A DNA stretch of 64,000 bases, from the NCBI GenBank assembly GCA_964404765.1, contig CAYOLL010000002.1:6604-70603 (forward strand), written 5' to 3'. Shown in pieces: positions 35,358-64,000 of the stretch. The notes under the pieces are model-generated. The model did not search any database. It saw only the letters and a list, made by a program, of their open reading frames with translations, and had not been told where the DNA came from. This DNA is from an uncultured Gemmatimonadota bacterium (lineage in GTDB: Bacteria > 4572-55). The position numbers and the translations under genes were made by a program. The stretch's first letter is position 1. Every line of letters starts with the position of its first letter.

Positions 35358-38300
35358 ATGAAAAAATTCATTTTTTTAACATTGGCGGTGTTGGGTTGTG
35401 CCCAAATCACATTTGGGCAGTCTTCGATTCCCGCGCTTTCCAATGATCGTGTTTATGGCGGCGACGCAGTTAGTTCGGCAAAATTACAAGCTTTTATTAT
35501 TCATTATGAGCTGACCCATGTTAGCCCGGCCCGTTTTTTTGTCGTTTATGCTGCCGATACGGGCGGCAGTCTGCCCGCGTACACCTCCCGTTTAATCAAG
35601 ACCTGGCAGTATGACCGCCGTTTTGACAGGAACGAGCATATTATCTTAGTCTTCGCCCCAAAACAGCATGACTTTTATATCCATTTTGGCGATTCCTGGC
35701 AACACTGCTTTGACCTTGATAATGACTTGGCTCAACTGCAAGTTTTACTGAATGCCACCTACAAAACATCCCCGCAGGAAATCATCCGGATTCTCGACCA
35801 ATGGATGCAGACACATATCCGGCAGCGCCGCGAATTTGTAGCGCGGGGCGCCGCGCGGTTGCAAAAGATTAAAGCGCTTATTGCGGAAAAACAAGCTCAG
35901 CATCTTGTTTTTAGCCCACCGGAAGGCTATGCCATAGCCATCAGACGTTTTCAACAGATAGCCGGCGATTGCAATTGCAACCGCGTACAAGCCGCATTCA
36001 ACGCCCTCAATATTGCCTTAAACGATACCGAAGACGCCATCCGCGCAGCCGCTCAACAGCAGGCTGAGGCCAGGCTTAGTCTGGCCCATGCCAACGCCAT
36101 ATTTGGGCAGTTAGGCAAAACGTTCCTGGCTATTCCCGATTCTATTGCCGAACCGGCGCGAATTAAGAATGCTTATGCCGAAGTCGAATCGTTGCTGATT
36201 TTAGCGACCGACGAGTTGCCGACCCATTATGCCCAAAGCAATGAGCACAGTGTTTCCGCTTCCAATCTGGCCAATGTGCTTATTTTCCGCATCGAGCGCG
36301 CGCAAAAAATGCGCATGGCGGCTTATACGCTGAGCATTAAAATTAATGATCGTCTGGAAAATTTTGCGAATATGGATGCGCATAATCCGGTCAATATCAC
36401 TTTTGATCGCAAGCGCCTGGCAGCGTTACAGGATACTGTTAAAATGCTCATGGCAATACAAGCCGGTCAAGCCGAAGAATTTGTGCATAAAGGCACTAAC
36501 ATCTTAGAGCAATTGGATGAATTAAATAGCGCTACGTTAAAAGATCGAACCATCGCGACTTTGCATAATTATGGCGATCTTTTGACGATTGCTTTTTTTA
36601 TTGGGGTGATGTCAGTTTTATTTTCCTACACTATGTTTTACCATTATAAACGCCATGAATATATTGAGATTATCCTTAACGAGAAAAAATATGCCTGGGA
36701 GCGTTTTCAAGAGCACGCGCGATCTATTATCGATTTGCTGAACACGGGTTTTGGCAAGCTGATCCCAGCTCCGAATGGCCAGTTGCAAGTGCGTTTTTCA
36801 GGCCAATCCTATACACAATATAAAAAAGCGCTTTCGCAGATTAACAGCATTTATAGTCAACAGCATTTTGCCGAGCAAAACTTGACCGCCGTTCAAGCTT
36901 TTTTATCCCAAATGTCGCCCTGGAGACCTAATCTGGTCCAAGATGCCGTGGACTATTTAAAGGGTCAAAAAATAATCCCGGAAGATGCGGATTTTGATAC
37001 TTTTACTAAAAAAGTGAACACGGGCGATTTATCGTTGGCGCTGGTACAGATTGATCGCTTGATTATCAATCTTGACGATTATTATGAATCGGCTGCCAGC
37101 ATTCTGGAGCAAATCCGGGAGGCTCAGGAGCGGGTTCGACTGGAAGCGGCCAATGGTCAGGTTTTTGTCAGCCGGGTGCGTGACCTTCTGGCAGAACATC
37201 AAGCGGCCAATAATCTCCAGCCGTTTTATCAAAATCGTTTTGCAGAGCTTAAAGTTGATCTCAACAAGGTGCTTGCTCTGGAAAAAACAGATCCAATCGC
37301 TGCCGTACATGCCTTTGAAGGAATTACGGTTATGTTAAAAAGTTTAGTGGAAAATCTAACCCAGATTCCGGACTTTTTGGCAGAAAGTCAGTCCCTGACT
37401 GGCTGGCTGGATGATTTTAATCAGACGATCAGCCAATTGCGCGATTCCGGGTTACGTTTGCGAGAAGACGGCGGCCCGGAACCGTGCGTTGAAAGCGCCC
37501 GCGCTTTGTTGCACGAAGGCCAATACAACTTAAGCCAGGGTCGAATTACACAGGCAAAATCGGTATTTGATAGCGCCCGCAAATTATTGGAAGAGGCCAA
37601 CGCGCAAATTTCTAAGACAATTGAAATCAAAGATGTTGTAGCGCATCAAATTGCTGAGCTAAAAGCGCTTAACGAGCGGTTATACGATGAGATAGCCGAC
37701 ACGATGATCTCACTGGCAGATATGCGCAAAAGCTTTAAACAAGAAGCCTTTAGTCTGGAAAACGATCATGTGGATGAGTCGGTTCTGATTCTAAATAAGT
37801 GCGGCAATCTGCTGATTGAGGCGGAAATGTACATTCAGCCGTTTATGCAAAAATTTTTAGCGGCTTGGAAATTAGTGACCGAAGTTGAACAAATGCAGCA
37901 CGGTGTCCGGCATCTGTTAGTCCAGGTCAAAAAGCGACGCGCAACGCTTTACGATTTGCGGCGCGAAACACAAGCGCAATACGAAAGTTTAACGGATTTC
38001 TATACCCGTGTTGTTAATTTTGTGCGAAAGCATCACACCGATTTGCCGGCGGATTTCAGTGAGTTTTTGAGTATTATCGGTACAGATTGCGCCGATTTGC
38101 AACGGCGCTTCGAAGTCGAGCAGATTGATTGGGAAGATTTTAAAATTAATATTGGCGAGCTGGAAAAAGCGATTCTGTTTGTCTTTGAGCTGGCTTCGCA
38201 AAATGAGCAAAGCCGGATTTCGTATAAACTGCATCTGCAATCCGCGATGCTGACGATTCAGGAAGTGGAGGCGCTTTTTGCTGTCGAAGTAACGATGCCG

Positions 38301-38909
38301 CCCCTGGTGGCGCAGGAAATGTATACCTGCGCCAAGGCGCTGCTGGAAGTTGTCAATGAGTTGGGTCATCAGCAGTGTGCCGAATGGCCCGAGCAAATCT
38401 TATTGCTCGACTTGATTGACGAATTAGGAGACAGGGCCAAAAGCTGTGCGCTCAGGCCGCTTTCCTTAGATGAGCAGGTCGGGGAAACGCTGCAAGTGCT
38501 GGAGCAACCGGAAAATAAGCGTCAGCTCGAAAAAGCTAAGACAGATCGCGTCAATAAAATGCTGGCCGACCATATTGAAGAGCAGTATCGATCCGAGCAT
38601 TTTCAGGACGCAATTCAATCCAGCTTTCGCTTGCTCCTGACTGCTTATAAAGAAGAGTGTCTCAAGCGGATTGAATATAAAAAGACGATGCGCAAAAACG
38701 CTTTTGACGAATTGACCAATACTCGCAAGGCAACTCTGGCCAGGGCCAAAGCCGAGCGCACCGGCAGTTGGATTCGTCAAGCACGGGAACGGGCCTGGTA
38801 TTTGATGCCGCCCTCGTTTTTAACCACCGAAACAATCGTGCCGGTTCAGGTTGAAGAAGATAGCGATTTTATGGAGGCCACCGGCACAAGCGGCCTCCAT
38901 TTAGTCTGA
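35358..38909 (+). CDS. Large (1183 aa) signal-peptide protein with an N-terminal TPM (TLP18.3/Psb32/MOLO-1)-like domain, one TM helix and a ~750-aa helical / coiled-coil region
   Basis: Signal peptide 'MKKFIFLTLAVLGCAQITFGQ'. TPM-like block 'FFVVYAADTGGSLPAYTSRLIKTWQYDRRFDRNEHIILVFAPKQHDFYIHFGDSW'. TM helix 'LLTIAFFIGVMSVLFSYTMFYHY'. The rest is long and Glu/Leu/Gln-rich with no catalytic motif recognised. Confidence 0.55.
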   Translation: MKKFIFLTLAVLGCAQITFGQSSIPALSNDRVYGGDAVSSAKLQAFIIHYELTHVSPARFFVVYAADTGGSLPAYTSRLIKTWQYDRRFDRNEHIILVFAPKQHDFYIHFGDSWQHCFDLDNDLAQLQVLLNATYKTSPQEIIRILDQWMQTHIRQRREFVARGAARLQKIKALIAEKQAQHLVFSPPEGYAIAIRRFQQIAGDCNCNRVQAAFNALNIALNDTEDAIRAAAQQQAEARLSLAHANAIFGQLGKTFLAIPDSIAEPARIKNAYAEVESLLILATDELPTHYAQSNEHSVSASNLANVLIFRIERAQKMRMAAYTLSIKINDRLENFANMDAHNPVNITFDRKRLAALQDTVKMLMAIQAGQAEEFVHKGTNILEQLDELNSATLKDRTIATLHNYGDLLTIAFFIGVMSVLFSYTMFYHYKRHEYIEIILNEKKYAWERFQEHARSIIDLLNTGFGKLIPAPNGQLQVRFSGQSYTQYKKALSQINSIYSQQHFAEQNLTAVQAFLSQMSPWRPNLVQDAVDYLKGQKIIPEDADFDTFTKKVNTGDLSLALVQIDRLIINLDDYYESAASILEQIREAQERVRLEAANGQVFVSRVRDLLAEHQAANNLQPFYQNRFAELKVDLNKVLALEKTDPIAAVHAFEGITVMLKSLVENLTQIPDFLAESQSLTGWLDDFNQTISQLRDSGLRLREDGGPEPCVESARALLHEGQYNLSQGRITQAKSVFDSARKLLEEANAQISKTIEIKDVVAHQIAELKALNERLYDEIADTMISLADMRKSFKQEAFSLENDHVDESVLILNKCGNLLIEAEMYIQPFMQKFLAAWKLVTEVEQMQHGVRHLLVQVKKRRATLYDLRRETQAQYESLTDFYTRVVNFVRKHHTDLPADFSEFLSIIGTDCADLQRRFEVEQIDWEDFKINIGELEKAILFVFELASQNEQSRISYKLHLQSAMLTIQEVEALFAVEVTMPPLVAQEMYTCAKALLEVVNELGHQQCAEWPEQILLLDLIDELGDRAKSCALRPLSLDEQVGETLQVLEQPENKRQLEKAKTDRVNKMLADHIEEQYRSEHFQDAIQSSFRLLLTAYKEECLKRIEYKKTMRKNAFDELTNTRKATLARAKAERTGSWIRQARERAWYLMPPSFLTTETIVPVQVEEDSDFMEATGTSGLHLV

Positions 38910-52103: not shown

Positions 52104-52421
52104 TCATGCGGGGCACAAAGCGGCGTGATTTCGGTTTCCCAACCATTTTTTGAGTGAGGTTGAACTCTCGCCCGAACGCCGTCCGGCCAGAATTCCGGCA
52201 ACAGTCAAATCCTCGTCCAAATCCGGCCAATGAATGTACGCACCGTCGCCGATGATCCGATAATTGTCGCGCTCTTGCGGTGTGCCGTGCCATAAGCGCG
52301 GATACCACATCAATGGCGCAATGATCGTCCGACCGTCGGTCAAGTCGATTTGCAATGCGTCATCGCTGATCTGAACTTGCCGGGCGTGCGCGTCTTGGAT
52401 TTCATTGATTAAAGAACTCAT
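52104..52421 (-). CDS. DUF2442-family protein
   Basis: 'ISDDALQIDLTDGRTIIAPLMWYPRLWHGTPQERDNYRIIGDGAYIHWPDLDEDLTVAGIL' is the DUF2442 signature. Confidence 0.75.
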   Translation of the reverse strand: MSSLINEIQDAHARQVQISDDALQIDLTDGRTIIAPLMWYPRLWHGTPQERDNYRIIGDGAYIHWPDLDEDLTVAGILAGRRSGESSTSLKKWLGNRNHAALCPA

Positions 52422-52716: not shown

Positions 52717-53190
52717 TCAATTGAGGTTACCTTTTGGCAGCGTTTTGGAAAAATGGTCGTCCAACTTATCCAAAACGGCCAATCCTTTTGTTCGAGAGCC
52801 TTTTGCCGCTAAAGCACGGAATCGAACTTCCGCGACGTGCGCCTTTAACATTGTCGGTGAAACGTCTACGCCGGTGGCTTCGGCCCAGACTAAAGCTTCC
52901 AGTTCGCGGGCTTCGTCGTTGGCCATCTGGCGATAAGCCGCTTCGAGATTGAGGTCTATGGGCGAATCCGGGGTGACAAACGATTTTGTTTTCAAGCCTA
53001 AGGCATCCGCCAATTCCGGGTTTTGACGAACATCTTCGTCCAGAAGGATGTAACGCGCCACGGCTAAACGGTCTTTCTTCGGCAGGGCGCAAAACACCCG
53101 GTAAAAGGCTTCAGCCGTGTTCGTTGTTGCAACCTTCCGTACAGGTTTTTTACGACTTAGCAGTATTGGTGATGCGGATGATTGATTCAT
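52717..53190 (-). CDS. Hypothetical protein (157 aa)
   Basis: ORF with a plausible start and no recognised family. It lies between aceE and the DUF4160/DUF2442 pair on the same strand. Confidence 0.4.
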   Translation of the reverse strand: MNQSSASPILLSRKKPVRKVATTNTAEAFYRVFCALPKKDRLAVARYILLDEDVRQNPELADALGLKTKSFVTPDSPIDLNLEAAYRQMANDEARELEALVWAEATGVDVSPTMLKAHVAEVRFRALAAKGSRTKGLAVLDKLDDHFSKTLPKGNLN

Positions 53191-53228: not shown

Positions 53229-55910
53229 CTATACCAACGGCGGATACGGCTTCTCCCCATCCACGCCCAACTCCGCCATTGCCGCGGCGGCGGCGGAACG
53301 CTCCATTTTCCCTTGCGCGGCCAATGTCGACAGGGTAGCGGCCACAATATGCTTGGCGTCCACCTCAAAAAAGTCGCGCAGAGCCTCGCGGGTTTCGCTG
53401 CGGCCAAAGCCGTCGGTGCCCAGCGAAGTCAGCGGGGCGGGCAGCCACTTGGCGATCATATCCGGCAAGGCTTTGACATAGTCGGATGCGGCGACGTACA
53501 CGCCGTCAACACCGGACAGCGTCTTTTGCAGCCAGGATTGGCGCGCCGGCTGATCGGGATGGAGCAAATTCCAGCGCTCGGTTTCGTCGGCATTGCGATA
53601 GAGTTCCTTGTAGCTGGTCACGCTCCAGACGGTCGCCGCTACGCCGTATTTTTCTTCCAGAATTTGCTGGGCCTTCAACACTTCGTTCATAATGGCGCCG
53701 CTGCCGAACAAGTTGGCTTTTGGTCCGTTTGGACGAACGGACTCTCTGTATTTATACAGGCCGCGCAGTACGCCTTCTTCGCAGCCTTTGAGCGCAGTTG
53801 GCTGCACATAATCTTCATTCATCACCGTAATATAATAGAAGATGTTTTCCTGCTTCTCAAACATGCGATAAATGCCATCGCGGATAATCAGCGTCAGTTC
53901 AAAGCCGAAGGCGGGATCGTAGCATAGCATGTTCGGCACGGGATGGCCGAGCAAGTGGCTGTGGCCGTCTTCGTGCTGCAGGCCTTCGCCGTTCAACGTC
54001 GTGCGGCCGGACGTGCCGCCCAGCAAAAAGCCACGGGCGCAGCAATCGCCGGCGGCCCAAACCAAATCGCCAATGCGCTGTAAACCAAACATGGAGTAGA
54101 AGATATAGAACGGCATCATGCTGATCCCGTATGTCGAATAGGCCGTGCCTGCGGCAATAAATGATGACAGCGAGCCGGCTTCGGTAATGCCTTCTTCCAA
54201 AATCTGGCCGTCGGTGGCTTCTTTGTAATAGAGCAAGGTATCGGCGTCCACCGGCTCGTAGGTCTGGCCGACGTGCGAGTAAATGCCGCATTGCCGGAAC
54301 AGCGATTCCATACCAAAGGTGCGGGCTTCGTCGGGCACAATCGGCACGATAAACTTGCCGAGTTCTTTGTCCTTCAACAACTTGGCCAAAATCCGCACAA
54401 AAACCATAGTGGTGGAGACTTCGCGGTTGCCGCTGCCGTCCAAAAACTCCTGGAAGACTTCGATTGGCGGTGTTTTGTGCGGTTCGGCAATCGCAATACG
54501 ACTTGGCACATAACCGCCCAGTTGCTTGCGGCGTTCGCGGATATATTGAATTTCCGGACTGTTATCTGCCGGCTTATAAAAAGGTGCGGCGGCAATCTGT
54601 TCATCAGAGATTGGAATGCTGAAGCGGGTGCGGAACTCGCGCATTTCATCTTCGTTCAGCTTCTTTTGTTGATGGGTGATGTTTTTGCCTTCGCCGGCTT
54701 CGCCCATGCCGTAGCCTTTGATGGTGCGGGCCAGGATAACAGTGGGGCTGCCGACGTTGTCGATGGCCGCTTTGTAAGCAGCGTACACTTTTTCGGGATC
54801 GTGTCCGCCGTAACGCAGCTTGCGCAGTTGTGAATCGGACAGATGCTCGACCAGTTTGAGCAAGCGCGGGTCGGCGCCAAAAAAGTGCTTGCGAATAAAA
54901 TCGCCGTCCGACACAATGTATTTTTGAAACCAGCCGTCAACCAATTCTTCCATACGCTTGACCAGTAAACCGCCATCTTCTTTTTCCAGAATTTCGTCCC
55001 AATCATCGCCCCACAAGACTTTAATGACATTCCAGCCGGAGCCGCGGAAGGTAGCTTCCAACTCCTGAATAATCTTGCCGTTACCGCGCACAGGGCCGTC
55101 CAGACGCTGCAAGTTGCAGTTGATGACAAAGACGAGGTTGTCCAATTTCTCACGCGAGGCTAAGCCAATGGAACCCAATGCCTCAGGCTCATCCGTTTCG
55201 CCGTCACCCAGGTAAGCAAAAACTTTTTCGCCATTTTTTTGCTTCAGACCGCGATCTTCCAGGTAGCGCATAAAACGGGCCTGATATATTGCCTGCAACG
55301 GCCCAAGACCCATTGACACGGTTGGAAATTGCCAAAAATTCGGCATCAGCCAGGGATGCGGATAGGATGACAAACCACCACCTTCCGCCAGTTCGCGCCG
55401 GAAATTGAGCAGTTGATGCTCGGTTATCCGGCCTTCCAAAAAGGCGCGGGCATATATGCCGGGTGAGGCATGGCCCTGAAAGTAGACCAGATCACCATGA
55501 TAGTTTTCGCTGCGACCGCGGAAAATATGGTTAAAAGCGACTTCGTAGAGCGTGGCCGCCGAGGCGTAGGTGGAGATATGGCCGCCGATACCAGGCGTGC
55601 GTTTGTTACCGCCCACGACCATGGCCATGGCGTTCCAGCGCAGGATGCTTTTAATCCGGCGTTCGGTTTCGCGATTGCCGGGGAATGACGGTTGCTTATT
55701 CCGCGGAATTGTATTAATAAACGGCGTGTTGGCTGTAAAGGGAATTTCTACGCCGGCTTGTCGGGCATGGATATTCAGATCACGCAGCAAAGTGTTGACG
55801 CGCTCTGGCCCTTTATAGGACAACACATAGTCCAGCGAGTCCAGCCACTCGCGGGTTTCCAATTCTTCTTCGTTGGTAATGTCCTGATAATCGCGTGGGG
55901 TGTCGTTCAT
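53229..55910 (-). CDS. aceE: Pyruvate dehydrogenase E1 component, homodimeric type
   Basis: About 890 aa. 'GGHISTYASAATLYEVAFNHIFRG' and 'DGETDEPE' regions are canonical AceE. The start was taken at MNDTPRDYQD (55910), and the ORF-track start 55979 adds 23 aa. Confidence 0.9.
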   Translation of the reverse strand: MNDTPRDYQDITNEEELETREWLDSLDYVLSYKGPERVNTLLRDLNIHARQAGVEIPFTANTPFINTIPRNKQPSFPGNRETERRIKSILRWNAMAMVVGGNKRTPGIGGHISTYASAATLYEVAFNHIFRGRSENYHGDLVYFQGHASPGIYARAFLEGRITEHQLLNFRRELAEGGGLSSYPHPWLMPNFWQFPTVSMGLGPLQAIYQARFMRYLEDRGLKQKNGEKVFAYLGDGETDEPEALGSIGLASREKLDNLVFVINCNLQRLDGPVRGNGKIIQELEATFRGSGWNVIKVLWGDDWDEILEKEDGGLLVKRMEELVDGWFQKYIVSDGDFIRKHFFGADPRLLKLVEHLSDSQLRKLRYGGHDPEKVYAAYKAAIDNVGSPTVILARTIKGYGMGEAGEGKNITHQQKKLNEDEMREFRTRFSIPISDEQIAAAPFYKPADNSPEIQYIRERRKQLGGYVPSRIAIAEPHKTPPIEVFQEFLDGSGNREVSTTMVFVRILAKLLKDKELGKFIVPIVPDEARTFGMESLFRQCGIYSHVGQTYEPVDADTLLYYKEATDGQILEEGITEAGSLSSFIAAGTAYSTYGISMMPFYIFYSMFGLQRIGDLVWAAGDCCARGFLLGGTSGRTTLNGEGLQHEDGHSHLLGHPVPNMLCYDPAFGFELTLIIRDGIYRMFEKQENIFYYITVMNEDYVQPTALKGCEEGVLRGLYKYRESVRPNGPKANLFGSGAIMNEVLKAQQILEEKYGVAATVWSVTSYKELYRNADETERWNLLHPDQPARQSWLQKTLSGVDGVYVAASDYVKALPDMIAKWLPAPLTSLGTDGFGRSETREALRDFFEVDAKHIVAATLSTLAAQGKMERSAAAAAMAELGVDGEKPYPPLV

Positions 55911-56037
55911 AGCCTTCATCCTTTTCGGTAATGAGTGAGGAAATAACATTGCGCGTGAAGCAAGCGTAATTCTCAGCACATCTTAAGTAAGAATAATACG
56001 CGGCACGCTCGTTCACGTCCGATTATGTATGTTGAAA

Positions 56038-59000
56038 TTATTGCAGTAGCTTTTCCAGAGCCGCATTAACTTCCGCGGCTTGCTTCCGGGTCAGACGCTC
56101 CAGTTTTAAAATTTGGCTTATCTCGTGCCGGATACGTTGTTGATGCTCGGTGTAGGCGGCGCAAACCTGCCGGGTATGTGCTTCCGTTTGCGGGACGGGC
56201 ACCGGCCCGATTACGTGGCGCAACAGTACGATTTTCAAATACTCCGCTTCGCCGGCGGATTCACATTCCAGCCGATGGCCGTTGATGACCAAAACGGCTT
56301 TGTCAAAAAAGTATTCTATGCGCGGCGTTTCAATTTCGCGAATGTCCGGCAGGATGCGGGTTTTGACCGGCCAATCGGCATGAATAAAATCATCCGGAAA
56401 ACGGCGGCGCGGCTCGATTTTTTCCAGCTCGCTTAAAACATGGGCCGCAAAGGTGTCGGCGTTGAAATTTTCGACCCGTTTGCTTTTCTTGGACGTGACC
56501 GATTGCGGCTTGACATGCACCCGCTCGTAAACCAGGCGGCAAACTTCCCAATAGATTTCTTTGCATTCTTGCTCAGTCAAACCCAAGGCGTCGAAAATGA
56601 CATCGTCCAATTGTTTACGATCCGGCAACGGCTGTGGATCGGGCAAGGGTTTGGTTTTGTCGGCAAAGGCGGCTTTGGGCAGGCCGCATTCATGAAAGAT
56701 AGACTCTATTGGGCGCTTTGACAACTTTCTGATGGCTGATTTGAGCGTCTTTATTTGGTCGTTGCTAAATGCTTTGGGATTGGGGATCATAAGTTTGGCA
56801 ACTTCGTATGCCTCTGCTTTGAGTAAACCGCCACCAAAATTCACGCGACCTAATGAATTGAAGATGAGTTGAAAAACCGAACTGTTCGTCAACGCCAATA
56901 GCACACTAGAATCCGACTTGGCGTGTATTTCGTAAAAATTATTACTAAAGTATAATCCACCAGGCGTATAGTAAAAACGTACTATTTCATTGATTGCAAA
57001 ATTGCAGTTTATTTTTGCCGCTTTTCTTTTGCCAAGATCATACCACTTTTTTCTTGCGCTGCATGTTGGGCGCAAATGAAGATTTCTTGCTTCGCCCTCT
57101 TCAATGTATCGCAGAATATTTAACCCGAGTAATTCTTCTTTCGTTTTATGGCACATCAACAATTTATATTTCAACTCGGCTGGATAGATTAAAAGCAGAC
57201 TGCTTTCACGGGCATTTTTCACTGCCGGAACAAGAAACTCGTCTTCAATACCCCATGCCTTGGCGACGTCATCAGCAAGAAAGAAAAAATCATTATCACC
57301 GGTCTTGATCCCAAATCGCACATTTGCAACTGACCCAAGCGGTACCAACAAGTCCTTTTTTCCGGCTATTTCCAAAACTTTAAAGTAAATATCCGGCGCT
57401 CGCAGATATTTACTCCCCCATTTGCTGCCAGCGTAAGTCTGACCATGCATTCCTTCCTCGTACAATTTCTTTTGCTGAACCAGCACAACGCGAATCTGGT
57501 CATCCTCATAGAAAGAATGGCGCTGTTCGATCCGTTGTATCAACCGATCCACATCCTGCCAGCGCAGATCGTCTTCTTTATGGGGCGGGCAGTTTGGAAT
57601 CAAATCCTCAAAACGTGTCTTTAGGCTCACAAACCTGACGGTATTTTCATCACGCTCTTTTTGGTCGCGGCAGCGTTCGATAATTGTAATCACGCTATTG
57701 ACATCGGCGGCGGCAAAATCCCGTTCCGCAGGCGAAGCGATAATGGCAATGATTTTAAAATGTTGACACAGATAATGTTGCAACGACGCGCCATAACGCA
57801 CATCCAGCCAGCTATTGGATGTAATGTAGCCCAGTCGTCCGCCTTCTTTTAAAAAAGCGGCGCTGTGCAGAAAGAAGTAAACATAGATATCGGCCTGCTT
57901 GTTGATGGCCGTATTGACGCCCCATTCCATATTCAGGGTCGCGGCTAATTTTTCCTTATCGTCAATCAATTCCTGCCGGATGTAGGGCGGGTTGCCGACC
58001 GTGGCGTCAAATTCGGGAATAGCGACTTCGACGGTATCCTTGCCGGAAATATCTTCGAAGCGATACTTGATGCCGGTATGCTTGCGAACCTGAAAGAATC
58101 CGTTTTTGGGCATGATGTCAAAAGCGTCGCAATTTTGGATATAGGGAAAATTCTCTTTTTCGGATAGGTCAAGCATAGCCAAGTTCATCATGGCCAGATG
58201 GGACGGGAATTTGGCAATATCACAGCCCCAAAGTTGTTCTAACAATTGCTTATGCGAGCAGCTTTGACCAGCCAGATATTTTAAACGCGAATAACTGCGG
58301 ACTAAAAACGTTCCCGCCCCGCAGCTCCAATCCGAAATAATGGCCTCCGCTTTGGTGACGCAAAAACCGACAATCAAATCCACCCGATTAGCCGGCGTGA
58401 AGTATTGGCCCATTTCATGCCGGTCAGTTTCAGGAATCAGGCTCTCATAGACTCGGCCCAGAATCTCATAATTCAGGCCGGCAAAGTTGTAATTGTTCAG
58501 GTCTTTGATAAAGCGGGTCAGTTGCTCCACCGCATCGTCGGGGATACGCGCTTCGTCAAACACGGTCGCGGCGAAGATCGGCTGGTAGTCAATTTGCTTG
58601 ACCTTGTCAAAGTGCTGATTCAAATCGTGCTGAAGCTGCCGCCCGGTTTTGACGTTGACCGCAATGGGACCCAGTACATCCGGATAGTGGTTGCGGACGA
58701 CGTTATAAAAGACGACCTTGTTGATGATCTGAAACACGGCCAGTCGGGCGATTTTGAAGTAAAATTCGTAGGACACATGCTCCGAACCTATCCGGTTTTC
58801 GATGGCGCTGTTCCAGCCTTGGGCGCTCACCCATCTCACCAGCTTTGCGTAGAAACCTTTGTCGGTTTCGCTCGTAATTTTGAGCGCCGAGGCAAATACC
58901 GGCGTATTGATGTCCACCAAAAAAAGCAGCTTGTAGACAAAAAAATCATCAATGGGTACGCCAATAAAACGCGCCGGCTCGCTCAGGATATGATGAAATG

Positions 59001-59466
59001 TCGTAAGGAATTTTTCTAAAAAACTACGGATTTTGGCCCAATTTTCCTCGTTATCCAGCCGATCCAGGTCGTTGTCCGGTAACAGGACGATATTGCGCCA
59101 GATCATCTTTTGGCGCTGCATCAGCGGCACATTGGATTCGTGGGTTTTCCATAGAATAAAGTCGCGCACGTTCCAGGTGGCAAAGTAATCCACGGCCAGC
59201 GCATTGGCTTTCATCAGCGCGTTGTTGACGGTTTCCAGATCCGTGGCGTCATATTTGGGCTGCTTGGTCTCGAAGGAAAGCGCAAACTTTTGCCGTTGTT
59301 TATCCGCCCACAGCAAGCCGTCCAGAAACACGCTTTGCCCGCCGACTTTAAGCGAATGTTCGGCCTCGGCCTCTTCAAAAGATTGAAATAGTTCCGGCGC
59401 TCCGCGGATGATGGAATTCATCATCTCTATAATTTTATAGCGGAAAGTATGTTCGGTGAGTTTCAT
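56038..59466 (-). CDS. Fused PD-(D/E)xK nuclease / N6-adenine DNA methyltransferase / target-recognition-domain protein (Type IIG/IIL-like restriction-modification enzyme, MmeI-like architecture); an orphan BREX PglX-like methyltransferase is the alternative
   Basis: N-terminal 'FLDGLLWAD...ALSFETKQ' is a D...ExK motif. Helical spacer 'YEILGRVYESLI'. Methyltransferase motif X/I 'MGQYFTP...DWSCGAGTFL'. Motif IV 'VGNPPYIRQ'. TRD-type motif 'RFGIKTGDNDFFFL'. 1142 aa. No separate methyltransferase, S or R genes are adjacent. Confidence 0.65.
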   Translation of the reverse strand: MKLTEHTFRYKIIEMMNSIIRGAPELFQSFEEAEAEHSLKVGGQSVFLDGLLWADKQRQKFALSFETKQPKYDATDLETVNNALMKANALAVDYFATWNVRDFILWKTHESNVPLMQRQKMIWRNIVLLPDNDLDRLDNEENWAKIRSFLEKFLTTFHHILSEPARFIGVPIDDFFVYKLLFLVDINTPVFASALKITSETDKGFYAKLVRWVSAQGWNSAIENRIGSEHVSYEFYFKIARLAVFQIINKVVFYNVVRNHYPDVLGPIAVNVKTGRQLQHDLNQHFDKVKQIDYQPIFAATVFDEARIPDDAVEQLTRFIKDLNNYNFAGLNYEILGRVYESLIPETDRHEMGQYFTPANRVDLIVGFCVTKAEAIISDWSCGAGTFLVRSYSRLKYLAGQSCSHKQLLEQLWGCDIAKFPSHLAMMNLAMLDLSEKENFPYIQNCDAFDIMPKNGFFQVRKHTGIKYRFEDISGKDTVEVAIPEFDATVGNPPYIRQELIDDKEKLAATLNMEWGVNTAINKQADIYVYFFLHSAAFLKEGGRLGYITSNSWLDVRYGASLQHYLCQHFKIIAIIASPAERDFAAADVNSVITIIERCRDQKERDENTVRFVSLKTRFEDLIPNCPPHKEDDLRWQDVDRLIQRIEQRHSFYEDDQIRVVLVQQKKLYEEGMHGQTYAGSKWGSKYLRAPDIYFKVLEIAGKKDLLVPLGSVANVRFGIKTGDNDFFFLADDVAKAWGIEDEFLVPAVKNARESSLLLIYPAELKYKLLMCHKTKEELLGLNILRYIEEGEARNLHLRPTCSARKKWYDLGKRKAAKINCNFAINEIVRFYYTPGGLYFSNNFYEIHAKSDSSVLLALTNSSVFQLIFNSLGRVNFGGGLLKAEAYEVAKLMIPNPKAFSNDQIKTLKSAIRKLSKRPIESIFHECGLPKAAFADKTKPLPDPQPLPDRKQLDDVIFDALGLTEQECKEIYWEVCRLVYERVHVKPQSVTSKKSKRVENFNADTFAAHVLSELEKIEPRRRFPDDFIHADWPVKTRILPDIREIETPRIEYFFDKAVLVINGHRLECESAGEAEYLKIVLLRHVIGPVPVPQTEAHTRQVCAAYTEHQQRIRHEISQILKLERLTRKQAAEVNAALEKLLQ

Positions 59467-59736
59467 TTACTTAACCGGTTGCGCGAAAAGCTTTAAAATT
59501 GGAAAACGGATTAACGTGGATTCGACGGATGCACACGAATTTTTAATTTTTGCTTTTTTAATCCGTAATCCGCGAAAATCTGCTAAATTCGTGAAAATCC
59601 GTGTTCCAATCTTTATATCGTGACAGTAGTGCTGTTCGGCATAAGTTTGTGTGAACTCAAACCTGACGGGTTTTGGAAACCCGTCAGGTTTTGATCGTCG
59701 AAAAAGTTCACACGAACTTACGCCGCCTTGCAGTAG

Positions 59737-62700
59737 TTATTGAAGATCAATCAACGCAACAACATCCTGAATATCCACCATACCGTCGTCGTTAATATCG
59801 AACACCGCTTCATATTCCCAATCTTCCAGAATGGCGTCGGTCAGGATGCCGATATCGTCCGCGTCAATTTCGCCGTTGCCGTTGATGTCGCCCGTCATGA
59901 GCCCGTCCAGTGTTTGAAAAGACGCTTCGGCCAGACACACTTGCGTCTCTTTAAGATCGGTGACGCACAGTTGGTAAAAGTAGGTTTGATCAGGCATCAA
60001 GTTATGCAAGTTACCAATATGCGAAGTCGCCGGCGTTGTTAGCTCAGCCGCCATTGGATAAATGCCGCTCTGCATGCCATAATGAATTATAGCTGTGGTC
60101 AGCTTGTCCGTTGAAAAAGAGATTCTCGCGGTGGTTGCGGTGATATTGGAAACCGCTACATTGCTGACTACCGGGGCGGGTTCGTCGTTATCTTCAATGG
60201 TCAATTCAAATTGGGCAGGCGTACCAAGCTTGGCGCTGTTACCACCGGATAGATTTTGGAGTGAAAAAGTAATCGCCTCCACATTTTCGATGGTGCTATC
60301 ATCGGTGATATTCAAAGATACCGTTTGTAGTATCGCGCCACCCGCGGCAAAAGTTAGCCTTTTCGTGCTGAAGTTCCCCACATCCTCAGCCGATCCGGCA
60401 GTTAAGGCCACATCAATTTGGGTTGGGCCGCTAATGGATGGCGCGGTTATCAGTACTTCCAGGGTGTAACTGCCATCGCCCTCTTTAACCGTGGCATTGG
60501 CCGCGGCAAATTGCACGGTTGTGCGATCCAAAATCGTGAGTTGAAATTGCGCTTGCGTACCGATTTTGGCATTACTGCCGCCGGTGACATTCTGCAAGGT
60601 GAAAGTCAGGGATTCGCTGACTTCGGCCAGGGCATCTTCGGTGATCGTCAACGTCACGGTTTGCGTAGCGGCGCTGCCGGCGGGAAAGGTTAGGGTTTGT
60701 GTCGCAAAGTTGTTCACATCCGCCGCCGTTCCGGATGTCAGGGCAAGCTGCACGGTGGTGGCGCTGCCGGAAGCCGGGGCCGTCACGCTCACGCTCAATT
60801 GATAGCTGCCGCCTTCGATGACCGTGGCATTGGCCGCGGCAAACTGCACCGTCGTGCGATCCAAAATCGTCAGTTGAAATTGCGCTTGCGTACCGATTTT
60901 GGCATTGCTGCCGCCGGTGACATTTTGCAAGGTGAAGGTCAAGATTTCGCTGACTTCGGCCAGGGCATCTTCGGTGACCGTCAGCGTCACGGTTTGCGTG
61001 GCGGCGCTGCCGGCGGGAAAGGTCAGCGTTTGTGTCGCAAAGTTGTTCACATCCGCCGCAGTTCCGGATGTCAGGGCAAGCTGCACGGTGGTGGCGCTGC
61101 CGGAAGCCGGGGCGGTCACGCTCACCACTAATTGATAGCTGCCGCCTTCGATGACCGTGGCATTGGCCGCGGCAAACTGCACCGTCGTGCGATCCAAAAT
61201 CGTCAGTTGAAATTGCGCTTGCGTACCGATTTTGGCATTGCTGCCGCCGGTGACATTTTGCAAGGTGAAGGTCAAGATTTCGCTGACTTCGGCCAGGGCA
61301 TCTTCGGTGACCGTCAGCGTCACGGTTTGCGTGGCGGCGCTGCCGGCGGGAAAGGTCAGCGTTTGTGTCGCAAAGTTGTTCACATCCGCCGCAGTTCCGG
61401 ATGTCAGGGCAAGCTGCACGGTGGTGGCGCTGCCGGAAGCCGGGGCGGTCACGCTCACCGCTAATTGATAGCTGCCGCCTTCGATGACGGTGGCATTGGC
61501 CGCGGCAAACTGCACGGTCGTGCGATCCAAAATCGTGAGTTGAAATTGAGTGCGGACGCCCAACACCGGCGTATTGCCACCGGAAACATTCTGCAAGGTA
61601 AAAGTCAACGTTTCGTTGCTCTCGCTGACATTATCATCCGTCACGGTGATTAAGACCTTTTGGGCAGTAGCGCTGCCGGCCGGAAAAGTCACCGTCTGGG
61701 TCGCGTAATTATTGATATCTGCCGCAGTTCCGCCGGTTAAAGCAACTTGTACGGTTGTGGCTTGCGCGCCCGGATTAATCAGGCTTATTTCAAGTTCGTA
61801 GGTATTGCCTTCGATTACCGTCGCCGTCGCGGTGGCGAACTGCACTTCCGTGCTCGGCGGGGCATTGCTCCAGATTCGGTTGACCCATTCCGGGTGGTCG
61901 ATAAAGGGGTTGCGGTTGTGCTGAAGTTCGGCCACCCGCTCGTTGCGACGCATTTCCAGGGCATCGACCGGGTCGGCCTGATGCCAGGCCAGCAGAGTGG
62001 ATACGACCCCCAATTTGTTGGTGATATTATTCGGATCATGGTTTGTATCAATCAATTCCAGATTGTACGGGTCCTTGCCGCCGCTGCCTTCGTAACGCGC
62101 GTCCATATAAAAAATCATGCGTGCTACGTTGCCTTTATCCTGTGGACGTGGTTCAAACGAGTTGGCGTCGGCAAAGCAGCCGGTGGCAAAGCCGTCGCTA
62201 TCGCTATAGGGCGTACCGCCGTTATCAAAATCCATGCTGCCGCGCTTACTGTTGACCGTTACATCCGCCGGCCGTAAATGATGCAAATCAATATAGCCAG
62301 GCTCTTTATCATCAATGCCGATGCCATTGGGCCACACGTGTTCGCGGTTCCAGTTATCTGCACCCGTACCTTGTAGTGATTTGGCGCGGGATCGTCCGTC
62401 ATAAATCAAAATAACATTGTTGGGATTAGCGGGATCTTCGTCCGCATATTTGAGGCCGTCCCAGACTCCGTCATAGTTTGTGACGGCGTCTTCAAAATAG
62501 GTATCACGCAGCAAAGCATTCAAAATGCTTTTTAACTCCGGGCCGGTTTGATTGTTGATACCGGCATAGTAATCGCCGCTGCCGAAGGTGCGGGCATTGG
62601 CGGTGATGCCTGCGGAATAGGTGTCGCTATTTTTTGACCAAATCTTATAATAGTATAGGGTGGCTTCATTCCGACCGGTATGATTAAAATCGGCCAGACT

Positions 62701-64000
62701 GCCGACAGCCAGCACCGTAGCGGTACCGATGGGTTGGCCGGCTGTGTATGATCCGCTCGGTGTGCCAAAACTATTACTGGTATTAAACGCCAGCAGAATC
62801 TGATCATTAGCCACGTTGCGTGTCCAGACCAGATGAATTTCCGAAGCGCCGGTCGGGGTGGCGGTAAAATTGGTCGGATCAATCACGCCGCTTGAGCTTT
62901 TGATGGCGACTTCATCGACCTGCCAATTTCGGGCGGCGTTGGAGCCTGTGCCGCTGGACTGATAGTGAAACGCCAGCGCGACCTGTGAACTGGAGGCAAA
63001 AGCGGCTAAGCTGATGTCGCCGGAACTCGTCCAGGTTTGGTCCTGCGTCGGGTTCAGGAAATTGAGCGTTGTCCAGGAAGCGGATGCCGGATTGCCACCG
63101 ACAGTATAGTTAGTAGAAATCTTAAGCGCTAACCCGTTGATGGTATCGGTAAAGCGCACCCACTCCCAAAATTCCAGCACGGGATTGGTATAGCCGGTCA
63201 AATTAATGGTCGGGATCAAGAGCCAATCTTCGCTGGCAACATCGCCGCCAAAACCGCTGCAGGCCATGTAGCTGCCGCTGCCGTTGGCTCCGCCGCCCGT
63301 TGTGGCAATCGTCCAGTTGCGGTTGCTGGCCACGTTGTAAGTGTCCCAACTCCCGGAAGCGGATTCAAAGCTTTCCAGACCGGTAAAAGCCGGAATACCG
63401 GGCGTGACGGCGGAAGTTGTCGGGACGCTTCCGTCGGTTTTGTAGGCGATGTTGGCGCCGCTATTGGTATATGGGAAGATTTTAAAAGTGTAAGTGACCG
63501 TGGGACTCAGGTTTTCAAAAAAGAAAGATTGGACGCCGGGGTTGACATTGACAGCGGCGCTGCCGTCACCTAATTGATTATCATTGGTCACAGCGACGCC
63601 GTTCGTAGGGTTAGAAATAGCGCCGGCGCCGGCATTGCTGGCTTTGATCAAATAACCGTCCGGCGCGGCGCGAGTGGCGTCCGTCCAAATCACCGTGATT
63701 CGTCGCGGACTATTGGCGGTGGCGGTAAAGCCGGAGACATGATTACTTGGCGCATTTTTGAGCGTCGTCGCGTTGGCGTTCACGCCGCTGGAATATGTAT
63801 TGCCGCTGTTGTATGACCAAGCTTTATAATGATAGGTTGTGTTTTCGGCCCGCCCGCTATGAAGAACGCTGGTGTTGCTGCCGGCTACTATCACCTGGCC
63901 GCCGCCGGAAATCGTCTGACCCAGTGTATAGCCGCCGGTGGGTGTGCCAAAAGTCTGGCTGGTATTAAAAGCCACCAGCACGCTGTTATTATCGTTGTTA
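59737..64000 (-). CDS. Giant secreted multidomain nuclease, 5'-partial (continues beyond the window). Domain order: repeated beta-rich modules, MAM/LTD-like domain, Endonuclease-I-family domain, five Calx-beta repeats, FN3 and a C-terminal dockerin
   Basis: Endonuclease I motifs 'NREHVWP', 'SKRGSMDF', 'ARMIFYMDARY', 'NRNPFIDHPEW'. Five ~111-aa Calx-beta-like repeats ('TTVQFAAANATVIEGGSYQL...TFTLQNVTGGSNAKIGTQAQFQLTILDR'). FN3 ('PAPVVSNVAVSNITATTARISF...'). Dockerin-type Ca-binding repeats 'DINGNGEIDADD...DINDDGMVDIQD' lie at the extreme C-terminus. The frame is open to base 64000. Confidence 0.75.
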   Translation of the reverse strand, partial: NNDNNSVLVAFNTSQTFGTPTGGYTLGQTISGGGQVIVAGSNTSVLHSGRAENTTYHYKAWSYNSGNTYSSGVNANATTLKNAPSNHVSGFTATANSPRRITVIWTDATRAAPDGYLIKASNAGAGAISNPTNGVAVTNDNQLGDGSAAVNVNPGVQSFFFENLSPTVTYTFKIFPYTNSGANIAYKTDGSVPTTSAVTPGIPAFTGLESFESASGSWDTYNVASNRNWTIATTGGGANGSGSYMACSGFGGDVASEDWLLIPTINLTGYTNPVLEFWEWVRFTDTINGLALKISTNYTVGGNPASASWTTLNFLNPTQDQTWTSSGDISLAAFASSSQVALAFHYQSSGTGSNAARNWQVDEVAIKSSSGVIDPTNFTATPTGASEIHLVWTRNVANDQILLAFNTSNSFGTPSGSYTAGQPIGTATVLAVGSLADFNHTGRNEATLYYYKIWSKNSDTYSAGITANARTFGSGDYYAGINNQTGPELKSILNALLRDTYFEDAVTNYDGVWDGLKYADEDPANPNNVILIYDGRSRAKSLQGTGADNWNREHVWPNGIGIDDKEPGYIDLHHLRPADVTVNSKRGSMDFDNGGTPYSDSDGFATGCFADANSFEPRPQDKGNVARMIFYMDARYEGSGGKDPYNLELIDTNHDPNNITNKLGVVSTLLAWHQADPVDALEMRRNERVAELQHNRNPFIDHPEWVNRIWSNAPPSTEVQFATATATVIEGNTYELEISLINPGAQATTVQVALTGGTAADINNYATQTVTFPAGSATAQKVLITVTDDNVSESNETLTFTLQNVSGGNTPVLGVRTQFQLTILDRTTVQFAAANATVIEGGSYQLAVSVTAPASGSATTVQLALTSGTAADVNNFATQTLTFPAGSAATQTVTLTVTEDALAEVSEILTFTLQNVTGGSNAKIGTQAQFQLTILDRTTVQFAAANATVIEGGSYQLVVSVTAPASGSATTVQLALTSGTAADVNNFATQTLTFPAGSAATQTVTLTVTEDALAEVSEILTFTLQNVTGGSNAKIGTQAQFQLTILDRTTVQFAAANATVIEGGSYQLSVSVTAPASGSATTVQLALTSGTAADVNNFATQTLTFPAGSAATQTVTLTITEDALAEVSESLTFTLQNVTGGSNAKIGTQAQFQLTILDRTTVQFAAANATVKEGDGSYTLEVLITAPSISGPTQIDVALTAGSAEDVGNFSTKRLTFAAGGAILQTVSLNITDDSTIENVEAITFSLQNLSGGNSAKLGTPAQFELTIEDNDEPAPVVSNVAVSNITATTARISFSTDKLTTAIIHYGMQSGIYPMAAELTTPATSHIGNLHNLMPDQTYFYQLCVTDLKETQVCLAEASFQTLDGLMTGDINGNGEIDADDIGILTDAILEDWEYEAVFDINDDGMVDIQDVVALIDLQ
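60480..61800. repeat. Tandem 333-bp coding repeats (four units, the central two nearly identical) encoding the Calx-beta modules
   Basis: For example, the 150-bp block gaccgtcagcgtcacggtttgcgtggcggcgctgccggcgggaaaggtcagcgtttgtgtcgc... recurs at 60980 and 61313. Period is 333 bp. Confidence 0.8.

What the first reader, a model, noticed from the sequence alone, without database searches (positions are those of the whole stretch)
56038..59466. Solitary 1142-aa fused nuclease/methyltransferase/TRD gene (Type IIG/IIL-like), with a ~220-aa C-terminal extension
A single polypeptide carries a PD-(D/E)xK-like motif (D...SFETK) at the N-terminus, the gamma-class N6-adenine methyltransferase motifs (GQYFTP, DWSCGAGTFL, NPPY) and a TRD with the GIKTG-N-FF signature. 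There are no neighbouring hsdM/S/R genes. The layout matches MmeI-like Type IIG/IIL enzymes, although about 200 aa longer than MmeI. The extra C-terminal region (~residues 920-1142) is unexplained. The gene sits between aceE and the giant nuclease gene rather than in an obvious defence island. BREX PglX has similar methyltransferase and TRD motifs, but no brx or pglZ genes lie nearby.
Basis: partly seen in the sequence, partly recalled or inferred. Interest (0 to 1): 0.5.

Follow-up and report, generated by a model that had tools for sequence, protein, structure and literature searches.

The report
Solitary Type IIG restriction-methylase with extra domain
This is a single gene that most likely both marks the cell's own DNA by methylation and cuts unmarked foreign DNA, an ordinary kind of bacterial defence enzyme, except that it carries a conserved tail domain that resembles nothing with a solved structure.

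Summary
The Type IIG reading holds.

- **Methylase and TRD:** residues ~331-650 are a gamma-class N6-adenine methyltransferase. Residues ~651-915 are a TRD related to those of M.BseCI and CamA.
- **Whole core:** a PADLOC Type IIG model covers residues 31-925 (E 3e-66).
- **Families ruled out:** it is not an MmeI, PglX, MAD2 or HsdM family member. All scores are far below cut-off and no partner genes occur in the window or in 86 homologous loci.
- **Sister clades:** 53 of 81 testable loci carry a RadC-N-like HhH gene directly upstream. The window has none.

Verdict: a known kind of enzyme in an uncharacterised variant. Interest is modest.

The parts
56038..59466 (-). Complete gene: 1142-aa single-chain nuclease / N6-adenine methyltransferase / TRD / C-terminal-domain protein
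   Evidence: ORF list and translation. PADLOC REase_MTase_IIG PDLC03606, E 3e-66, residues 31-925. 1188 homologues were found; most of the 120 best listed are 1100-1190 aa and cover 90-100% of the query.
59092..59466 (-). Residues 1-125: PD-(D/E)xK endonuclease domain with catalytic E5, D49, E66 and K68, plus the conserved YFATWN strand (95-99)
58477..59091 (-). Residues ~126-330: all-helical connector between the nuclease and the methyltransferase
   Evidence: The model shows long helices 140-162, 172-201, 203-215, 233-260 and 275-289. Part of it aligns with the BpuSI connector (192 residues aligned). There is no helicase/ATPase domain.
57517..58476 (-). Residues ~331-650: gamma-class N6-adenine DNA methyltransferase domain (GQYFTP, DWSCGAGTFL, NPPY)
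   Evidence: Pfam N6_Mtase 333-649 (3e-22), Eco57I 410-577 (1.3e-22) and MmeI_Mtase 376-553 (4e-9). The motifs are invariant in 46 homologues.
56722..57516 (-). Residues ~651-915: target recognition domain (GIKTGxNxFF motif at 719-728). The sub-region 781-915 is hypervariable.
   Evidence: The family profile matches M.BseCI 7qw5 over 474-907 (1e-20) and CamA 7lni over 700-911 (5e-20). M_Eco57I_C is sub-threshold here but is listed in the precomputed Pfam column for nearly all homologues. Identity to the four closest relatives is 36% in 781-915 against about 70% in the nuclease and MTase. Its divergence is decoupled from the scaffold (Spearman 0.06-0.22).
56515..56721 (-). Residues ~916-984: conserved helical segment (DRKQLDDVIF-DALGLTEQECKEIY) that follows the TRD
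   Evidence: Columns E926, D949, L953, D954, L961, L963, E967 and R982 are invariant or at least 90% conserved. The PADLOC IIG model reaches residue 925 at model position 890 of 935.
56038..56514 (-). Residues ~985-1142 plus the stop codon: Lys/Arg-rich linker followed by a family-specific C-terminal domain (helix, five-stranded sheet with one helix, long helical hairpin)
59467..59736 (-). 270-bp upstream intergenic region: a G+C-rich hairpin just after the stop codon of the upstream gene, then an A+T-rich stretch. The gene therefore appears to be its own transcription unit.
   Evidence: Sequence read directly. The hairpin AACCTGACGGGTTT-CCAA-AACCCGTCAGGTT lies just after the giant nuclease gene's stop codon. 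The simple scan called no promoter-like or terminator-like site on the minus strand in this region, so promoter and terminator are both inferred.

Best explanation
The gene most likely encodes a self-contained Type IIG-style restriction-modification enzyme.

Inferred by analogy with characterised Type IIG/IIL enzymes: the TRD (651-915) reads a short DNA sequence. The gamma-class methyltransferase (331-650) uses SAM to methylate an adenine in that sequence on host DNA. The N-terminal PD-(D/E)xK nuclease (1-125) is held by a helical connector and cuts unmethylated foreign DNA at a fixed offset, probably with two enzyme molecules cooperating. No separate methylase gene accompanies it, so its own methylation must protect the host. 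That is the MmeI-like (Type IIL) logic.

The enzyme also carries a basic linker and a ~140-aa acidic alpha/beta domain with a helical hairpin (985-1142). This domain defines its family. I propose it is a protein-protein module that docks on the helical-connector/MTase scaffold or mediates self-association, rather than a catalytic or DNA-specificity element.

Shown here: domain folds, motifs, conservation, solitary context, and the modularity of the tail domain. Inferred: enzymatic activities, cleavage geometry, and the role of the tail domain.
For: - **Core match:** PADLOC Type IIG model over 31-925, E 3e-66.
- **Methylase:** Pfam N6_Mtase and Eco57I hits.
- **Catalytic residues:** E5, D49, E66 and K68 are present and conserved.
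- **TRD:** the MTase-TRD profile matches M.BseCI and CamA at about 1e-20. TRD sub-region 781-915 diverges independently of the scaffold, as expected for shuffled specificity domains.
- **Solitary context:** homologues sit in unrelated gene neighbourhoods with no R, S or BREX partners. No defence genes were found among the 19 window ORFs scanned.
- **Tail domain is real:** pLDDT 89, 640 representative clusters, and it is encoded as a translationally coupled separate gene in 10 loci.
- **Tail domain role:** its conserved residues are F, P, C, A and P rather than catalytic types. Its alpha/beta part is acidic, pI about 5.9. Its divergence tracks the MTase (0.81) and helical connector (0.78, partial 0.42), not the TRD (0.21).
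Against: No activity data exist for any family member that I could find, and REBASE could not be queried.

The window protein's own N-terminus has no Pfam hit, so the nuclease assignment rests on a predicted fold plus motif conservation.

A few family members have degenerate ExK motifs (SLK, EIES, EIWD), so nuclease activity is dispensable in some lineages.

The tail domain's proposed role rests only on composition and correlated divergence. No full-length or multimer model was made.

Most sister-clade members have a RadC-N-like partner gene that the window lacks. The minimal one-gene form may therefore behave differently.
Confidence: 0.78

Rival explanations
1. It is a solitary (orphan) DNA adenine methyltransferase used for epigenetic regulation. 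The N-terminal nuclease-fold domain is inactive or repurposed as a DNA-binding or structural module.
For: There is no companion genes or defence island; it lies between housekeeping aceE and a secreted nuclease. Base composition is close to the window's (0.479 vs 0.499), suggesting long residence. Some family members have lost the ExK residues.
Against: The window protein keeps E5, D49, E66 and K68. These are invariant or at least 90% conserved across 46 homologues at 35-57% identity, which argues for selection on catalysis. The TRD is hypervariable and decoupled from the scaffold, typical of defence enzymes rather than conserved regulatory methylases. The family sits in different neighbourhoods in different genomes.
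Confidence: 0.12
2. It is the methyltransferase component of a multi-gene system (BREX PglX, MADS MAD2 or Type I HsdM-like) whose partners lie elsewhere in the genome.
For: Weak HMM hits: PADLOC mad2 at 1.4e-28 over 33-602; NCBIfam MAD2 68 bits, PglX 31 bits, hsdM 27 bits; BrxX structures at 3e-6 over the catalytic motif region.
Against: All scores are far below the curated cut-offs (720, 500 and 243 bits). A Type IIG model explains residues 31-925 much better. No partner genes were found in the window. None recur in 86 homologous loci, where the only recurrent neighbours are the RadC-N-like gene and the split tail domain.
Confidence: 0.03
3. The family is really a three-part system: a RadC-N-like HhH protein, the RM fusion, and the tail-domain subunit. 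The tail domain and HhH protein regulate or license the nuclease. The window copy is a reduced form that works differently from a plain Type IIG enzyme, or not at all.
For: 53 of 81 testable loci have a UPF0758_N gene directly upstream on the same strand. In 10 loci the tail domain is a separate gene with ATGA-type start/stop overlap. The tail domain has no known homologue.
Against: The window and its whole subclade (L001-L004, L008-L011) lack the HhH gene yet keep an intact, conserved ORF, so the HhH protein is not essential. No function is known for either accessory part. Fusion versus split of a terminal domain is common and need not imply regulation.
Confidence: 0.07

Closest known systems
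BpuSI (Type IIG restriction endonuclease, PDB 3s1s)
   Different: Only 11% identity in the aligned part, and no sequence-level hit with either the full-length or the N-terminal profile. BpuSI is 870 aa and lacks the 985-1142 linker and domain. From my own knowledge, BpuSI is accompanied by separate methyltransferases, whereas this gene is solitary.
MmeI (Type IIL/IIG, PDB 5hr4)
   Same: Solitary single-chain enzyme with the same domain order. With no separate methylase, host protection must come from the enzyme's own methylation (inference).
   Different: Only the MTase Pfam model of the MmeI set hits (36 bits), weaker than Eco57I and N6_Mtase. The profile matches MmeI only over 296-428 at 1e-6. 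MmeI is 919 aa and has no equivalent tail domain.
M.BseCI (7qw5) and CamA (7lni): gamma-class N6A methyltransferases with a TaqI-like TRD
   Same: These are the closest solved relatives of the MTase-TRD part. The family profile matches M.BseCI over 474-907 (1e-20) and CamA over 700-911 (5e-20).
   Different: Both are methyltransferases only (about 580 aa). They have no nuclease domain, helical connector or tail domain.
Haloarchaeal plasmid and virus Type IIG enzymes (e.g. Haloarcula virus HCTV-6 'type IIG restriction modification enzyme'; Halorubrum lacusprofundi plasmid N-6 DNA methylase)
   Same: 25-29% identity across residues ~63-915, that is nuclease, connector, MTase and TRD.
   Different: The matches stop at ~911-915, so they lack the C-terminal linker and domain. 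They sit on mobile elements rather than in a chromosomal housekeeping neighbourhood.
BREX PglX/BrxX and MADS MAD2 methyltransferases
   Same: They share the gamma-class N6A catalytic core. mad2 also aligns over part of the N-terminal region.
   Different: Scores are 31 and 68 bits against cut-offs of 500 and 720. No partner genes were found.

Membership tests
Type IIG restriction-modification enzymes (single-chain R-M-S) | Endonuclease domain and methyltransferase domain in one polypeptide | tested here: met
Type IIG restriction-modification enzymes (single-chain R-M-S) | Intact nuclease catalytic residues (E...PD...(D/E)xK) | tested here: met
   E5, D49, E66 and K68 are present. D49 is invariant and the others are at least 90% conserved.
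Type IIG restriction-modification enzymes (single-chain R-M-S) | Gamma-class N6A MTase motif order (X, then I, then IV) followed by a fused TRD | tested here: met
   GQYFTP at 353, DWSCGAGTFL at 379 and NPPY at 492. The TRD is homologous to those of M.BseCI and CamA over 700-911.
Type IIG restriction-modification enzymes (single-chain R-M-S) | Site-specific methylation and cleavage activity, SAM-dependent or SAM-stimulated | not testable with these tools
   Needs biochemistry or a methylome. REBASE was not available.
MmeI family (Type IIL) | Matches to the MmeI-specific N-terminal, helical, TRD and C-terminal domain models, or overall sequence similarity to MmeI | tested here: not met
   Of the Pfam families named for MmeI, only MmeI_Mtase appears among the hits (36.4 bits). 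MmeI 5hr4 matches the profile only over 296-428 at 1e-6.
BREX PglX | Score above the NF033452 cut-off, and neighbouring brxA/B/C, pglZ and brxL genes | tested here: not met
   31.3 bits against a 500-bit cut-off. No BREX models hit the window ORFs scanned. There is no recurrent large neighbour in 86 loci. The rest of the genome is not available.
MADS MAD2 | Score above the NF047738 cut-off, and neighbouring mad genes | tested here: not met
   68.4 bits against a 720-bit cut-off. The PADLOC mad2 hit at 1.4e-28 is much weaker than the IIG model. No partner genes were found.
Type I HsdM / Type ISP | Separate hsdS and hsdR genes (Type I), or a helicase-like ATPase between nuclease and MTase (Type ISP) | tested here: not met
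   hsdM scores 27 bits against a 243-bit cut-off. There are no hsd neighbours. Residues 126-330 are a purely helical connector with no ATPase domain.

The most novel reading that the evidence does not exclude
The C-terminal domain (985-1142) is a new fold-level module that acts as a detachable regulatory or assembly subunit of the enzyme. It is fused here and is a separate, translationally coupled gene elsewhere. Together with the RadC-N-like HhH protein found upstream in most sister loci, it would define a distinct, widespread three-part restriction system of uncultured bacteria and archaea. In such a system nuclease licensing would differ from that of classical Type IIG enzymes.
Probability: 0.2. 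Interest if true: 0.5.

Novelty: new variant of a known kind. Interest (0 to 1): 0.3.

Why it matters
As a Type IIG enzyme it is routine, and standard defence-annotation HMMs already flag it. Two things are worth recording.

First, this architecture defines a large family with no functional study found in the papers searched. At least 640 clusters at 50% identity carry the tail domain. Members span Zixibacteria, Ignavibacteria, Chloroflexota, CPR, DPANN, Bathyarchaeota, ANME-1 and Asgard archaea.

Second, the family has two unexplained accessories: a confidently folded C-terminal domain with no structural relative, and a RadC-N-like HhH partner gene. Characterising one member would give a recognition motif usable for methylome-based binning of these uncultured lineages. 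It could also show how an added module controls a single-chain restriction enzyme.

Tried and rejected
- **Tail domain, sequence searches:** Pfam on all 34 members and a PDB profile search gave nothing meaningful.
- **AFDB50 fold search:** not available on the machine.
- **N-terminal sequence profile against the PDB:** no hit. Only the fold comparison worked.
- **Exact-sequence contig look-up of the window protein:** not on record. It is probably an FCB-group bacterium, judging from the Por_Secre_tail domain in a neighbouring ORF and the Zixibacteria/Ignavibacteria nearest relatives (inference).
- **Phase-variation repeats or tRNA/integrase flanks:** none found.
- **Horizontal-transfer signal from composition:** weak. 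Gene GC is 0.479 against 0.499 for the window, and only the TRD part is low at 0.43.
- **Literature on RadC-N/UPF0758 with restriction-modification:** nothing relevant.
- **CGGATT/AATCCG enrichment upstream:** four copies in 270 bp, but another window region reaches the same count, so it was not pursued.
Full report
**1. Observation**

The ORF 56038..59466 on the minus strand is 1142 aa with an ATG start. The quoted motifs are all there:
- D49 in FLDGLL and E66-x-K68 in SFETK
- GQYFTP at 353
- DWSCGAGTFL at 379
- NPPY at 492
- GIKTGDNDFFF at 719

Downstream lies aceE (53229-55979; TIGR00759, 1362 bits). Upstream lies a 1414-aa protein with Endonuclease_1, five Calx-beta stretches, fn3 and dockerin domains (59737-63981). 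I read this as an extracellular nuclease unrelated to restriction.

The 270-bp upstream spacer holds a G+C-rich hairpin just after the upstream gene's stop codon, then an A+T-rich stretch. The gene therefore looks like its own transcription unit. The simple scan called no promoter-like or terminator-like site on the minus strand there, so both are inferred. Base composition is unremarkable: 0.479 against 0.499 for the window, with only the TRD part low at 0.43. There are no tRNAs in the window and no significant repeats around the gene.

**2. What the core is**

- **HMM hits.** Pfam finds N6_Mtase (333-649), Eco57I (410-577) and, more weakly, MmeI_Mtase. A PADLOC Type IIG restriction-methylase model aligns from residue 31 to 925, covering model positions 36-890 of 935 at E 3e-66. 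NCBIfam models for MAD2, PglX and HsdM score 68, 31 and 27 bits against cut-offs of 720, 500 and 243.
- **Homologues.** A search returned 1188 homologues. Most of the 120 best listed are 1100-1190 aa and cover 90-100% of the query at 34-57% identity.
- **Conserved residues.** In an alignment of 46 of them (A1), D49 and the MTase motifs are invariant. E66, K68, F95, T97 and N99 are at least 90% conserved. The consensus reads KFPDxxIW...CLIExKxP. E5, which the model places at the start of the first helix, is also at least 90% conserved.
- **MTase-TRD.** The full-length profile matches M.BseCI over 474-907 (1e-20) and CamA over 700-911 (5e-20). It matches MmeI only over 296-428 at 1e-6.

The protein is a Type IIG-type fusion, but it is not an MmeI-family member.

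**3. Context**

Nineteen window ORFs were scanned with Pfam and/or PADLOC: all nine of at least 500 aa plus ten smaller ones. The Pfam hits among them include a TonB-dependent receptor, a GDE_C glucosidase, an M14 peptidase, TPR proteins, an aromatic amino acid lyase and aminotransferases. None matches a defence family.

Homologues in Zixibacteria RBG-1 and in two metagenome contigs sit in unrelated neighbourhoods. A scan of species-representative genomes found 200 relatives. They occur in Zixibacteria, Ignavibacteria, Dehalococcoidia, CPR, DPANN, Bathyarchaeota, ANME-1, Odinarchaeota and others.

Clustering the neighbours in 86 loci gave no R, S, BREX or MADS partner.

Relatives in haloarchaeal plasmids and viruses are 25-29% identical. 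The three best virus hits are annotated 'type IIG restriction modification enzyme' and the plasmid ones 'N-6 DNA methylase'. The best of these cover only residues ~63-915.

**4. The C-terminal extension**

The region splits into three parts:
- **916-984:** a conserved helical segment, DRxxLDxI..ILGLTxxEQxEVY.
- **~985-1004:** a Lys/Arg-rich linker.
- **~1005-1142:** a domain with family-wide motifs (FPxDYI, LPxG, C1068, A1074, IPxD).

A model of 978-1142 has pLDDT 89. It shows a helix, a five-stranded sheet with one helix, and a long helical hairpin.

A profile of the domain searched against 1.84 billion representatives finds 640 clusters. In the 150 listed, the match lies at or near the C-terminal end of proteins of up to ~1200 aa (many shorter ones are probably fragments), or the protein is a stand-alone 105-160 aa ORF.

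In 10 of the 86 loci the domain is a separate gene that starts at or within about 10 nt of the main gene's stop, in five loci overlapping it (ATGA or TGATG). It is therefore an autonomous module.

Four observations bear on its role:
- Its conserved positions are structural residue types.
- Its alpha/beta part is acidic, pI about 5.9, while the linker is basic.
- Its pairwise divergence follows the MTase (Spearman 0.81) and the helical connector (0.78; partial 0.42 after controlling for the MTase) but not the variable TRD (0.21).
- The TRD sub-region 781-915 is decoupled from everything else (0.06-0.22). It is only 36% identical to the four closest relatives, against about 70% for the nuclease and MTase. 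That is the usual signature of shuffled specificity.

I therefore favour a protein-protein role for the tail domain, either docking on the scaffold or self-association, over catalysis or sequence reading. This step is inference.

**5. An accessory gene in sister clades**

In 53 of 81 loci with enough upstream sequence, a ~100-125 aa gene lies directly upstream on the same strand. It is the N-terminal helix-hairpin-helix part of RadC (Pfam UPF0758_N, up to 1e-27) without the JAB domain.

The window has no such sequence. Its Zixibacteria/Ignavibacteria subclade also lacks it directly upstream. I found no relevant literature on this association.

**6. Mechanism, comparison and verdict**

The best explanation is a self-contained Type IIG restriction-modification enzyme. 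The TRD reads a site and the gamma-class MTase methylates an adenine with SAM. The tethered PD-(D/E)xK nuclease cuts unmodified DNA nearby. Because there is no companion methylase, host protection must come from the enzyme's own methylation, as in MmeI-type enzymes (inference from established Type IIG/IIL biology).

Membership of Type IIG by architecture is met on every feature that could be tested here. Membership of the MmeI, PglX, MAD2, HsdM and Type ISP families is not met.

The main rival is an orphan methylase with a dead nuclease. The conserved catalytic residues and the hypervariable TRD disfavour it, though a few relatives have lost ExK.

Novelty lies only in the family-specific tail domain and, in relatives, the HhH partner. 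It is a new variant of a known kind and of modest interest. No activity has been measured, REBASE could not be consulted, and no full-length model was made.

Noticed in passing
Loci L016, L018, L020-L023, L026-L030, L034 and others; for example L034:9640-9954 (+), directly upstream of the homologue at 10001: In 53 of 81 testable family loci, a ~100-125 aa gene lies immediately upstream on the same strand. It encodes only the N-terminal HhH domain of RadC (Pfam UPF0758_N) and has no JAB domain. It is absent from the window and its closest subclade.
   Followed up: partly
L048:12988-13359, L077:11039-11425, L041:2273-2644, L076:3589-3987, L064, L078, L051, L072, L081, L084: In 10 loci the C-terminal domain is a separate downstream gene that starts at or within about 10 nt of the main gene's stop, in five loci overlapping it (ATGA or TGATG). 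The split falls at the same domain boundary each time, so it looks like a natural split into a subunit.
   Followed up: partly
Homologues P0059, P0071, P0087 (SLK); P0030, P0037 (EIES); P0055, P0120 (EIWD); P0081 (KLK): A minority of family members have substitutions in the ExK nuclease motif while keeping the PD aspartate and the MTase motifs. They may be lineages that became methylase-only.
   Followed up: no
window 59737-63981 (-): A 1414-aa protein combines Endonuclease_1 with fn3, a FixG_C-like Ig domain, five Calx-beta stretches and a C-terminal dockerin. It is probably a large secreted or surface-anchored nuclease.
   Followed up: no
window 35358-38909 (+): A 1183-aa ORF has no Pfam hit at E <= 1e-5 (only sub-threshold TPM_phosphatase and ActD traces) and no PADLOC hit.
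   Followed up: no
window 52104-52421 (-) and 52717-53190 (-): A small DUF2442 protein (105 aa) lies near a 157-aa ORF with no family match, between the TPR gene and aceE. It could be a small toxin-antitoxin-like pair.
   Followed up: no
window 59467-59736: The spacer upstream of the gene holds a long nested inverted repeat (GTTCGTGTGAAC...AACCTGACGGGTTT/AACCCGTCAGGTT...GTTCACACAAAC). It also holds four CGGATT/AATCCG hexamers in 270 bp, about 10 times the window density, although one other 270-bp stretch reaches the same count.
   Followed up: partly
L087 (Mesorhizobium sp. L-2-11 plasmid NZ_AP023258.1, 183575-186166): A relative in a cultured organism matches query residues 348-1118, which includes most of the tail domain. 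It starts about 10 nt from an IS66-family element, the match lacks query residues 1-347, and it is annotated as two CDSs, so it appears degraded.
   Followed up: no
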